Below are positions 1,119 to 62,112 of a stretch of DNA of 64,000 nt, in pieces; the first letter of the stretch is position 1; the number at the start of each line of letters is the position of its first letter. The stretch lies in the NCBI RefSeq assembly GCF_009914755.1, contig NC_060941.1, one strand, 5' to 3'. The stretch is from the human T2T-CHM13v2.0 reference genome, Homo sapiens. Both the position numbers and the translations under genes were made by a program. The notes under the pieces were generated by a model, which worked only from the letters and a program-made list of their open reading frames with translations, did no database searches and was not told where the DNA came from.

Positions 1119-1438
1119 TAGTTGTCCTTTGGTATCCTTGGGGAACTGGTTCCAGGACCCCATAAATATCAAATTCTCAGATGCTCAAATCCCTTATATA
1201 AAAATAACATAGTATTTGCACATAACCCACATATATCCTCCCATATAGTTTAAATCACCTCTAAATTACTTATAATACCTAATACAATGTAAATGCCATG
1301 TAAATAGTTGTTATACTTTATTTTTTTATTTGTATTATGTTTTATTGTTGGATTGTTGTCTTTATTTTTTAAAAATATTTTCTATCCACAGTTGGTGAAT
1401 CCAAGGATGTGGAATCTATAGATATGGAGGGCTGATGG
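1119..1438 (+). mobile_element. MER2 (TcMar-Tigger MITE)
   Basis: Starts (C)AGTTGTCCTTTGGTATCC…GGTTCCAGGACCCC, has internal GATGCTCAAATCCCTTATATAAAA, and ends GATATGGAGGGCTGATGG. Flanked by TA. Confidence 0.85.
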
Positions 1439-1641
1439 TATATGGGGATGTGAGTGAGGAGTGGAAGGGGAGGGCTGATGGTATATGGGGATGTGAGTGA
1501 GGAGTGGAGGGGAGGGCTGATGGTATATGGGGGTGTGAGTGAGGAGTGGAAGGGGAGGGCTGATGGTATGTGGGGGTGTGAGTGAGGAGTGGAAGGGGAG
1601 GGCTGATGGTATGTGGGGGTGTGAGTGAGGAGTGGAAGGGG
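1426..1641. repeat. 43-bp minisatellite, 5 copies (GGAGGGCTGATGGTATATGGGGATGTGAGTGAGGAGTGGAAGG)
   Basis: Units start at 1426, 1469, 1511, 1554 and 1597 (one unit is 42 bp). Confidence 0.95.
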
Positions 1642-2569
1642 AATGTTAGGAAGTGGAAAAAGAAAACGCTGCCTTTATAGCCAAACTGTCTCTAACCTGC
1701 TGATTTCTTCTAAAACCTTTTAAGTCCATACTTACATTTATAGCTATGTAAACAGAGAAATTGGTAATATTTGCATTGTAGGAGAGGTAACAGAAATGTC
1801 TTCCATCTCAATTTTATAGTAATATAGTTTCTAGACGTGTTTTTTCACTGTTGTTGCAAATCACTTAGAAAAAAGTGGTATTTTACTCAAATTTTCATCA
1901 TCAATATCAATGGTATTATTTTCCTTGATTTCTGCACTGGGAATCTGTACTTTTAGAAACAGCAATGTCAATCTATGAACTGGATGTGGGATCTGAATGG
2001 ACTTAACGGGTAGAATATGACATTAATATTTACATAAAAGGGCTTCATGGAAGATTGGTTAGGAACCTCAGCTGGGTGTGTAATGCATTCATTGAGAATT
2101 TTTATCACTTACAACGGCAAGGTGATACCAGTTGTCACGGCTGTGTTTTGCTTATGTTACTAAGCTATTAAAAGGGGTGTGTATCACTGTCAGCTTTTTC
2201 AATTGAATAGACTTTTTCAGAGCATGAAATTGCAGGGCACGCCTTGCTGGGAATGCTTCCAGAGAGCCAAGATGTGTAAACTCAGCCAGGATTATTCTTA
2301 TCTGAATATCTATCCCGTGTTTAGTAGATGGAAGAGCTATGATTCAAGAGGTTAAGTGATATGCCCAAGGTCACAGTCACATTTTTGCTCATGATCAGTC
2401 TCCTGACCAAGTAGAAAGTGGTGGGTTTCCACAGTGCTCTCTTTAGCTTCTCTGAGAGCCATTATGTTATTGTTGTATGTTTTCACAGATTGCCACTCCT
2501 GTTAGACTATGAGTCCCATGAGAATAAGGACAGTGTTTTTCCAGCCTTCATCACAGGAACCATTTTTGA

Positions 2570-9199: not shown

Positions 9200-9238
9200 C
9201 ATGCAAGACATTGAACAAACCATTTTAACCTCTCTGAG
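9200..9238 (+). mobile_element. MIR, left part (split by the L1PA insertion)
   Basis: TTGAACAAACCATTTTAACCTCTCTGAG continues after the L1 as ACCTCTGAGACTCAGTTTCCTTATCCATAAAAT. Confidence 0.65.
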
Positions 9239-9719
9239 GCGGTTCCAAGATGGCCGAATAGGAGCAGCTCCAGTCTACAGCTCCCAGCATGAGAGACGCA
9301 GAAAACGGGTGATTTCTGCATTTCCAGCTGAGCTTTGAAGAGAGTAATGGTTCTCCCAGCACGGAGTTTGAGATCTGAGAACGGACAGACTGCTTCCTCA
9401 ATTGGGTCCCTGACCCCCGAGTAGCCTAACTGGGAGGCACTCCCCAGTGGGGGCAGACTGACACCTCACACGGCTGGGTACCCCTCTGAGACAAAACTTC
9501 CAGAGGAACGATCAGACAGCAACATTTGCTGTTCTGCAGCCTCCACTGCTGATACCCAGGCAAACAGGGTCTGGAGTGGGTCTCCAGCAAACTCCAACAG
9601 ACCTGCAGCTGAGGGTCCTGACTGTTAGAAGGAAAACTAACAAACAGAAGGGACATCCACACCAAAACCCCATGTGTACATCACCATCATGAAAGACCAA
9701 AGGTAGATAAAACCACAAA

Positions 9720-10735
9720 ATGGGGAAAAAACAGAGCAGAAAAACTGAAAATTCTAAAAATCAGAGTGCCTCTCCTCCTCCAAAGGAACACAGCTCCTCA
9801 CCAGCAACAGAACAAGGCTGGACAGAGAATGACTTTGACGAGTTGAGAGAAGAAGGCTTCAGATGGACAAACTTCTCCGAGCTAAAGGAGGAAGTTCGAG
9901 CCATCGCAAAGAAGTTAAAAACCTTGAAAAAAGATTAGACGAATGGCTAACTAGAATTACCAATGTAGAGAAGGCCTTAAATGACCTGATGGAGCTGAAA
10001 ACCATGGCAGGAGAACTATGTGACGAATGCACAAGCTTCAGTAGCCAATTTGGTCAGCTGGAAGAAAGGGTATCAGTGATTGAAGATCAAATGAATGAAA
10101 TGAAGTGAGAAGAGAAGTTTAGAGAAAAAAGAATAAAAAGAAATGAACAAAGCCTCCAAGAAATATGGGACTATGTGAAAAGACCAAATCTACATCTGAT
10201 TGGTGTACCTGAAAGTGACGAGGAGAATGGAACTAAGTTGGAAAACACTCTGCAGGATATTATCCAGGAGAACTTCCCCAACCTAGCAAGGCAGGCCAAC
10301 ATTCAAATTCAGGAAATACAGAGAATGCCACAAAGATACTCCTCGAGAAGAGCAACTCCAAGACACATAATTGTCAGATTCACCAAAGTTGAAATGAAGG
10401 AAAAAATGTTAAGGGCAGCCAGAGAAAAAGGTTGGGTTACCCACAAAGGGAAGCCAATCAGACTAACAGCTGATCTCTCAGCAGAAATTCTACAAGCCAG
10501 AAGAGAGTGGGGGCCAATATTCAACATTCTTAAAGAAAAGAATTTTCAATCCAGAATTTCATATCCAGCCAAACTAAGCTTCATAAGTGAAGGAGAAATC
10601 AAATCCTTTACAGACAAGCAAATGCTGAGAGATTTTGTCACCACCAGGCCTGCCCTACAAGAGCTCCTGAAGGAAGCACTAAACATGGAAAGGAACAACC
10701 GGTACCAGCCACTGCAAAAACATGCCAAATTGTAA
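9720..10735 (+). pseudogene. L1 ORF1p (RNA-binding), disrupted
   Basis: MGKKQSRKTENSKNQS… through …YQPLQKHAKL*. Frameshift near 9900 and in-frame TGA at 10106-10108. Confidence 0.95.
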
Positions 10736-10798: not shown

Positions 10799-14631
<3,833 letters not shown>

Positions 14632-14829
14632 ACAATGAGAACACTTGGACACAGGAAGTGGAACATCACACACCGGGGCCTGTTGTGGGGTGGGGGGAGG
14701 GGGGAGTGATAGCATTAGGAGATATACCTAAAGTAAATTTTGAGTTAATGGGTGCAGCACACCAACATGGCACATGTATAGATATGTAACAAACCTGCAT
14801 GTTGTGCACATGTACCCTAGGACTTAAAG

Positions 14830-14834
<5 letters not shown>

Positions 14835-14886
<52 letters not shown>
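14835..14886. repeat. (TA)26 perfect microsatellite at the position of the L1 poly(A) tail
   Basis: 52 bp of uninterrupted TA, followed by CATA-type units to about 14900. Confidence 0.95.
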
Positions 14887-14890
<4 letters not shown>

Positions 14891-14900
14891 CATATACATA

Positions 14901-15080
14901 AAAAGAAAAAATCTATAAAGAAGGCAGAAAAATAGAATGTTTAGAAGAAAAAGTTAAATAATGAGCAATATTCTTATCAATAAAAATAGTTGGCAGAAAA
15001 CCACTGAAGTGCTGTTAACATAAAAGTTTATACCTAAATTATCACTCAAAATAAAGGCAAAAATAAATACAAAAAAAAAA
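14901..15080 (+). other. L1 3' transduction (non-L1 segment, AATAAA, A-tail)
   Basis: Unique sequence between the L1 3' end and the right TSD. AATAAA at 14979, 15050 and 15062; A-run at 15071-15081 directly before the TSD. Confidence 0.8.
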
Positions 15081-15160
15081 ACCTCTGAGACTCAGTTTCC
15101 TTATCCATAAAATTGTGATACTGATACCAACATCACAAGTTGCTATGCAAATGAAATAAG
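15081..15160 (+). mobile_element. MIR, right part
   Basis: CCTCTGAGACTCAGTTTCCTTATCCATAAAATTGTGATACTGATACC…TTGCTATGCAAATGAAATAAG. Confidence 0.7.
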
Positions 15161-20392: not shown

Positions 20393-21557
<1,165 letters not shown>

Positions 21558-39603: not shown

Positions 39604-42029
<2,426 letters not shown>

Positions 42030-61114: not shown

Positions 61115-61806
61115 TTCTAGTGGAAGCATTTCATTTTGGGGTGCAATTCTGATGGCATTGGCTGAGATTTGGCTAGCAGTGTGGGGACGGATGGCATGAG
61201 CCTGGTGGTCACTATCCAGGACATGGGATGTGAAGTGGGAGGACTGGCTGGGGATGCTGTTGGACATGAGAGGCCACACCCCCATCCCCTGCTCCATTCA
61301 CTGCCCTGAATGTGCAGCTGAATTCATTGCCCCAGTTTAAACCATGGAACGAGAAGCCATCAGCCTAGGCCCAGGTCTCTCCACTGCTACCACTGTGGTA
61401 TGCCCCAGAAAACCTAGAACACGATGCTCCAAAGGAGGGGCTGAGCTGTTTATTGCTTCTCGCCCTTTAGAAATGGAAGCTAAAATTTAGGGCTGAATTT
61501 GGGGGCCTTGTCAACACAAAGGATCCTTGCTCTGTATCTTGATTTTGGTGATGGCCATATGACCCTACACAAGTATAAAATTGCACAGAACTAAATACAT
61601 GTACACACACACACTCCCCTATATTATTTCCTATAACTGCATGTGAATCTACAATGATCTCATAGTTTAGGTCCATATTTGAACACCCATATTCATACCA
61701 CCATTATTCGCAATAGCCAAAAGGTGGAATACCCTAAGTGTTCATCAACAATGAGTGGATAAACAAAATGTGGCATATTCATGCAATGGAATCTTATTCA
61801 GCCTTA

Positions 61807-62112
<306 letters not shown>

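What the first reader, a model, noticed from the sequence alone, without database searches (positions are those of the whole stretch)
9239..9719. L1 integrated from a spliced RNA: exact SpIRE 97/622 junction in the 5'UTR
Seen: the 5'UTR is only about 480 nt and reads …TTTCTGCATTTCCAGCTGAG|CTTTGAAGAGAG… with the join at 9332/9333. Established: in intact primate L1 the sequence …CTGAG is followed by the donor GTACCGGG (about nt 98 in L1.3 numbering), and CTTTGAAGAGAG follows the acceptor …GTCTGACAG (about nt 621). Precise loss of this GT…AG interval defines a spliced integrated retrotransposed element. Inference: this copy lost most of the CpG island, the antisense promoter and ORF0 at birth but kept the YY1 site (9246-9255), so it was probably promoter-crippled on arrival. 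The class is known; whether this copy is catalogued I cannot tell.
Basis: partly seen in the sequence, partly recalled or inferred. Interest (0 to 1): 0.75.

Follow-up and report, generated by a model that had tools for sequence, protein, structure and literature searches.

The report
Catalogued spliced L1 with orphan tail
This is an ordinary, already published dead copy of the human L1 jumping gene that lacks the middle of its promoter, likely because its RNA was spliced before it was pasted into the genome; it also carries a short tag from chromosome 6, where the likely parent element is not found.

Summary
The 5'UTR joins ...CTGAG to CTTTGAAG... at 9332/9333. In 14 of 14 unspliced paralogues with both anchors, the missing 490-540 nt start with GT and end with AG. 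Larson et al. 2018 list this locus as SpIRE(97/622)-110, L1PA5; flanks and 5' sequence match the window. The junction occurs at 183 places in this genome. Spliced copies do not form one clade, so the same junction arose repeatedly, as splicing predicts. ORF1 and ORF2 are broken. It is a likely 3' transduction, already flagged as 'perhaps' by Larson. I found no L1PA-like sequence in about 17.9 kb upstream of that chr6 site, so the donor was probably never fixed, or was lost. Side result: the published list probably undercounts older copies. No primate orthologue could be tested. Verdict: already known, low interest.

The parts
9227..9238 (+). 5' copy of the target-site duplication (7 nt exact at 9227-9233; or 10 nt with one extra CT)
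   Evidence: Longest shared string AACCTCT at 9227 and 15080; Larson lists TSD 7 and EN site GGTT/A; the 10-nt reading is mine,
9239..9332 (+). 5'UTR exon 1, ending at the splice-donor position (L1.3 nt 97)
   Evidence: Followed by GT in 14 of 14 anchored unspliced paralogues
9246..9255 (+). YY1-type motif CAAGATGGCC, retained
   Evidence: Sequence; the identity of the motif is recalled; YY1's role in L1 initiation from PMC8535693 passages
9333..9719 (+). 5'UTR exon 2, starting after the acceptor AG (L1.3 nt 622)
   Evidence: Preceded by AG in 16 of 16 split-match paralogues
9480..9590 (+). 111-nt block absent from two young (PA1/PA2) SpIREs; likely the 129-bp ZNF93-bound segment less a 17-nt piece
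   Evidence: Alignment to L045 and L046; the 129-bp segment is described; ZNF93 binding here was not tested
9720..10735 (+). L1 ORF1, broken (1016 nt, not a multiple of 3; frameshift near 9903, stop at 10106-10108)
   Evidence: Pfam PF02994, PF17490, PF17489 on 10109-10732
10799..14631 (+). L1 ORF2, broken into pieces (longest ATG-started piece 204 aa)
   Evidence: Pfam RVT_1 on 12635-13036; end placed from the recalled ORF2 C-terminus
14632..14835 (+). L1 3'UTR
   Evidence: blastn to unspliced paralogues runs to 14834-14855
14830..14900 (+). (TA)n microsatellite, likely the decayed poly(A) tail of the L1 itself
   Evidence: Tandem Repeats Finder; origin inferred; Larson notes the TA repeat
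14902..15073 (+). 172-nt segment copied from G000:C6:8406925-8406754 (minus strand); likely 3' transduction; AATAAA at 15050-15055 and 15062-15067
   Evidence: 164/172 identical, no gaps; only 2 genome matches, self included
15071..15081 (+). Terminal A-run (11 A, the last two belonging to the TSD), longer than the 5 A at the chr6 site
15080..15089 (+). 3' copy of the target-site duplication
   Evidence: matches Larson's reconstructed empty site

Best explanation
This is a broken, near full-length L1 copy that lacks exactly the GT...AG interval of its 5'UTR, likely because the RNA it was copied from had been spliced; it is the published SpIRE(97/622)-110. Inferred steps: an unspliced L1PA5-age donor, likely then sitting at the chr6 site, was transcribed from its own promoter. 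The RNA ran through the L1 poly(A) into 172 nt of flank and ended at an A-rich, AATAAA-containing stretch. It was spliced from donor G98/U99 to acceptor A620/G621. Its own ORF2p would then have nicked chr17 at GGTT/A and reverse-transcribed it in place, leaving a 7-10 nt duplication. The new copy kept the YY1 motif but lost ORF0, the antisense start sites and the RUNX3 core, so it was likely a weak promoter from the start, and later mutations broke both ORFs. The donor likely never fixed, or was lost, in the human lineage.
For: Shown here: GT...AG edges in 14 of 14 anchored paralogues. Same junction at 183 places, control 0. Spliced and unspliced copies interleave on a tree of 30 loci: 9 changes against a shuffled mean of 10.1; one clade of the 14 spliced rows is rejected at p-AU 2e-12 (long-branch L027 left out). 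TSD, tail and transduced segment lie in the order expected for target-primed reverse transcription. No L1PA-like match in about 17.9 kb upstream at chr6, and no TSD there (longest shared string 5 nt). From print: catalogue entry; promoter and retrotransposition assays; RUNX3 core at the donor; primate transductions with no donor L1 at the source locus are reported (PMC4862182 passages).
Against: The 2-nt AG microhomology means a DNA-level deletion could give the same join in any single copy. No primate orthologue was available. Larson did not detect 97/622 splicing by RT-PCR in HeLa cells from an intact L1.3 5'UTR, so this splice is inferred from genomic copies. The donor cannot be seen, so its unspliced state is assumed. 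The upstream AATAAA of the window reads AACAAA at chr6. My idea that the chr6 site is an uninterrupted old ORF1 remnant, which would show a clean empty site, was not supported (tblastn E 1.3; no L1 Pfam hit).
Confidence: 0.93

Rival explanations
1. The element inserted unspliced and later lost the interval by a DNA-level deletion at the shared AG.
For: Both ends share 2 nt. A 17-nt piece in exon 2, bounded by a short direct repeat, is absent in scattered L1 copies, so small microhomology losses look recurrent in this 5'UTR.
Against: The identical junction recurs at 183 places in copies that are not one clade, always at the known donor; a 2-nt homology gives no such precision over about 500 nt.
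Confidence: 0.02
2. The parent was itself a SpIRE (at chr6 or an intermediate site), so this copy inherited the junction in a second round of retrotransposition.
For: SpIRE 5'UTRs keep about 7% activity, and one intronic SpIRE is reported to have had offspring through a host promoter (bioRxiv 2025.02.02.635956 passages). My estimate from that 7% is that about 6-7% of SpIREs could be second-generation.
Against: No sibling carries the chr6 tag (2 matches only). No host exon precedes the L1 start; the TSD abuts it. The nearest tree neighbour is unspliced, weakly supported (88/65). The window lacks the 17-nt piece that 13 of 13 other junction loci carry, though that trait looks recurrent and the unspliced set was selected by similarity to the window.
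Confidence: 0.05
3. For the tail only: the chr6 segment came from a separate RNA, joined by template switching or RNA ligation, so no donor L1 ever sat at chr6.
For: It explains the missing donor without any loss. Chimeras of L1 with other RNAs are known.
Against: The chimeras in the passages I saw carry the foreign RNA 5' of L1. Here the order is L1, decayed tail, unique segment, A-run, TSD, which is the standard order for a 3' transduction. Transductions without a donor at the source locus are reported.
Confidence: 0.12

Closest known systems
SpIRE(97/622)-110, L1PA5 (Larson et al. 2018, PMC5860796, S1 Table and S1 Data)
   Same: The same locus: empty-site flanks and the visible first ~400 nt of the filled site match the window; TSD 7, EN site GGTT/A, TA repeat in the tail, possible chr6 transduction (94.2% over 172 bp there, 95.3% here).
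   Different: Nothing in identity. Added here: no L1PA-like sequence upstream of the chr6 match; a possible 10-nt TSD with a CT slip instead of a 7-nt TSD plus untemplated bases; the transduced part measured as 172 nt (their 239 bp appears to include the TA repeat).
SpIRE97/790, 97/853 and 97/976 classes
   Same: Same donor G98/U99, same route of formation.
   Different: Other acceptors. This copy resumes at the 622 acceptor and keeps the segment holding the later acceptors.
RAP1GDS1-intronic L1PA2 SpIRE that regained mobility (bioRxiv 10.1101/2025.02.02.635956)
   Same: Same 5'UTR deletion class.
   Different: That one borrowed a host promoter and its offspring carry 5' host exons. This one has no annotated gene around it, no 5' exon, broken ORFs and no detected offspring.
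Partnered L1 3' transductions with no donor at the source locus (PMC4862182, class 1)
   Same: Unique tag behind the L1 tail, with no donor L1 near the source.
   Different: Those were polymorphic insertions in living primates; this one is old (tag 4.7% diverged) and spliced.

Membership tests
SpIRE97/622 | Loss of the 5'UTR interval starting at donor GT (G98U99) | tested here: met
   GT follows the upstream exon in 14 of 14 anchored paralogues; 2 of 16 lacked the anchor
SpIRE97/622 | Interval ends at acceptor AG (A620G621) | tested here: met
   AG precedes the downstream exon in 16 of 16 paralogues
SpIRE97/622 | Size of loss about 524 nt | tested here: met
   490-540 nt in paralogues, 5 of 14 within 520-530; 524 for L1.3. 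L1.3 itself was not available for alignment
SpIRE97/622 | Hallmarks of target-primed reverse transcription (TSD, 3' A tract, EN-like site) | tested here: met
   TSD 9227/15080, A-run 15071-15081; the site GGTT/A is a weak variant of TTTT/A
SpIRE97/622 | Subfamily within L1PA1-L1PA6 | tested here: inconclusive
   No subfamily consensus library at hand. About 93% identity to the best paralogues over 3.8-5.5 kb and the retained 111-nt block fit PA3 or older; the label PA5 is Larson's
SpIRE97/622 | Junction present from insertion (shared by primate orthologues) | not testable with these tools
SpIRE97/622 | Reduced promoter activity | not testable with these tools
   Shown in print for an L1.3-based construct only
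L1 3' transduction | Unique segment between the L1 tail and a second A tract, inside the TSD, matching one other locus | tested here: met
L1 3' transduction | Source L1 directly upstream of the segment at the source locus | tested here: not met
   No L1PA-like blastn hit in about 17.9 kb upstream (L033, L037). Absence of a donor is reported for validated transductions, so this lowers the call but does not exclude it

The most novel reading that the evidence does not exclude
The chr6 tag marks a vanished parent. If that parent was itself a spliced element, this copy would be a second-generation SpIRE made without a borrowed host exon, showing that the residual YY1-only promoter can seed germline insertions. 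A primate haplotype that still holds the chr6 donor would settle it.
Probability: 0.05. Interest if true: 0.4.

Novelty: already known. Interest (0 to 1): 0.13.

Why it matters
As a locus it matters little: both the class and this copy were published in 2018. Two small uses remain. The chr6 tag gives an address for the parent, so primate assemblies could supply a parent-offspring pair and show directly whether the splice happened in the RNA that made this copy. And the genome-wide count (183 junction matches against 116 listed) suggests that 97/622 splicing in older L1 subfamilies was commoner than the published table implies.

Tried and rejected
1) Post-insertion deletion: rejected on recurrence and non-monophyly; not tested on orthologues. 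2) A donor L1 at chr6: none in L033 or L037. 3) Siblings with the same tag: none. One search scored only 40 of 1923 candidates and was swamped by Alu, so it adds little. 4) The chr6 segment as an insertion derived from chr17: no TSD (5-nt best match) and only 5 A at its end. 5) The chr6 site as an uninterrupted ancient ORF1 remnant: a collinear hint only, E 1.3, no L1 Pfam family; not claimed. 6) The 17-nt loss in exon 2 as a private event: it is shared with many unspliced copies. 7) Multiple alignment across the long gap: MAFFT misplaced it; not used for the junction. 8) CpG content as proof of island loss: uninformative in old copies. 9) Literature: one search found no paper; two searches gave general transduction papers, and none of my searches was specific to this chr6 site.

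Full report
Observation. The window holds a near full-length L1 on the + strand, from 9239 to about 14835. A search of the window's own genome with 9239-9719 scored 40 of 4894 candidates and gave 29 loci besides the window. Thirteen match across the join and 16 split at query base 93/94. Among those 16, 14 had both 30-nt anchors, and all 14 show GT right after the upstream exon and AG right before the downstream exon, with 490-540 nt between. L013 and L016 lack the upstream anchor but keep the AG. Of the 13 joined loci, 12 have a zero gap; L002 was not resolved by the anchors. The exon end and the intron end share AG, so the join has three equivalent placements, one of which is GT...AG.

Identity. 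Larson et al. 2018 (PMC5860796) defined this class. I read the outline and abstract, Results parts 1-2 of 4, sections 14, 16 and 21, Discussion part 1 of 2, Supporting information part 1 of 2, all of S1 Table, and part 9 of 13 plus one search of S1 Data; S1 Fig is an image and was not seen. S1 Data lists 'Clone 110; PA5; SpIRE(97/622)-110, chr17:15355149-15361094' (hg38). Its empty-site flanks and the visible start of its filled site match the window by eye. The table row gives TSD 7, EN site GGTT/A, a TA repeat in the tail, and 'perhaps' a 239-bp 3' transduction with a chr6 match of 94.2% over 172 bp. So both the class and this copy are in print.

Splicing or deletion. A 27-nt junction pattern matches 183 places at up to 2 mismatches; the reversed control matches 0. 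On a tree of about 1750 nt downstream of the junction (30 loci), the 14 spliced rows need 9 label changes against 10.1 for shuffles (156 of 500 shuffles as low), so they are not clustered. Holding them as one clade is rejected, p-AU 2e-12 (29 rows, long-branch L027 left out). The same junction therefore arose repeatedly, at the known donor and acceptor, which splicing explains and a 2-nt microhomology does not. Against this: Larson saw no 97/622 product by RT-PCR from an intact L1.3 5'UTR in HeLa cells, and no primate orthologue was available here.

What was lost and kept. ORF0 (nt 236-452) and the antisense start sites (386-503) lie inside the lost interval (PMC4730256, passages). In paralogues L020 and L028 an antisense ATG sits at intron position 355, i.e. 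nt 452. The donor lies in a RUNX3 core. An L1.3-based SpIRE 5'UTR gives about 7-fold luciferase against 267-fold and about 7% retrotransposition without CMV; this copy itself was not assayed. The window keeps 111 nt (9480-9590) that two young SpIREs lack, likely the 129-bp ZNF93-bound block less a 17-nt piece. CpG content of the interval in old paralogues is low (7-20 CpG), so island loss cannot be measured. ORF1 and ORF2 are broken, with L1 ORF1 and RT Pfam domains in the pieces. Identity to the best unspliced paralogues is about 93%.

The tail. After the 3'UTR comes a (TA)n array at 14830-14900, then 172 nt (14902-15073), an A-run, and the second TSD copy at 15080. The 172 nt match one other place, G000:C6:8406925-8406754 on the minus strand, at 164/172 with no gaps. 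A 29-nt pattern at up to 3 mismatches finds only these 2 places. Divergence is 4.7% (95% interval 2.0-9.0%), in keeping with an old L1PA age; the rate needed to date it is recalled, so I give no date. Upstream at chr6 there is no L1PA-like match in about 17.9 kb; by eye there are Alus and A-rich sequence. The chr6 segment has no TSD and only 5 A at its end, so it is likely the native site. The simplest reading is a 3' transduction from a donor that never fixed or was lost. Source loci without a donor L1 are reported among validated primate transductions (PMC4862182, passages). A join of two RNAs is the rival; in the passages I saw of bioRxiv 2025.02.02.635956 such chimeras have the foreign RNA at the 5' side. 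That preprint's supplements were closed and may list this locus. My guess that the chr6 site is an unbroken ancient ORF1 remnant was not supported.

Mechanism. Shown: the edges of the loss, its recurrence, the order of parts, the chr6 match, the absence of a donor and of siblings in this assembly, and the broken ORFs. Inferred: read-through transcription of an unspliced donor, splicing from 98 to 621, target-primed insertion by its own proteins, a weak promoter at birth, and loss of the donor. A spliced parent is not excluded. From the 7% residual activity I put it near 5%; one SpIRE with offspring is reported, through a host promoter.

Side result. Of the 100 exact-match sites listed (83 more were not listed), 24 have no S1 Table row at an offset consistent with their neighbours. 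This was judged by eye, without a liftover. The unmatched share is 18 of 42 for sites with A at the variable position and 5 of 55 for sites with T (Fisher p 2e-4); 1 of 3 G sites is also unmatched. In S1 Data part 9 most PA5 copies carry A there, so the L1.3-based probe with its 95% cut-off probably missed older copies. Some of the excess may come from regions present only in the newer assembly, or from my looser criterion.

Other papers: PMC8535693 (passages) for YY1; bioRxiv 429613 (passages), not used beyond context. The rest were seen only as search listings. I make no claim that the missing donor or the undercount is unpublished; no search was specific enough.

Verdict. Observation confirmed, interpretation supported, already known at the level of the single copy. 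Interest 0.13.

Noticed in passing
G000 genome-wide: 183 places match the 97/622 junction against 116 in the 2018 catalogue; 24 of the 100 listed sites have no catalogue row at a consistent offset, mostly of the A type common among PA5 copies.
   Followed up: partly
L014 (G000:C24:26703897-26704389) and L015 (G000:C24:25083955-25084447): Two junction-bearing copies on contig C24, identical over the 1750 nt compared and with a long branch (0.096); Larson's table has no chrY row. Likely a duplicated region.
   Followed up: no
L047 (G000:C4:169611500-169612400): This SpIRE, which by offset matches the catalogue row labelled PA1 (SpIRE-38, length 5653), keeps the block that PA1/PA2 elements lack, so its subfamily label may be too young.
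   Followed up: partly
window about 9525-9530: A 17-nt piece bounded by a short direct repeat is absent here and in most of the unspliced paralogues fetched, but present in 13 of 13 other junction loci; the state is scattered on the tree, suggesting recurrent loss.
   Followed up: partly
window 20393-20954, 40025-40378, 61702-61810: Fragments of much older L1 copies, 66-73% identical to this element.
   Followed up: no
window 1426-1642: A 43-nt minisatellite of about 5 copies, 97% matches.
   Followed up: no
L038 (G000:C1:144669400-144676500): An unspliced L1 inserted into another L1's ORF2-like sequence, which flanks it on both sides with a short overlap.
   Followed up: no
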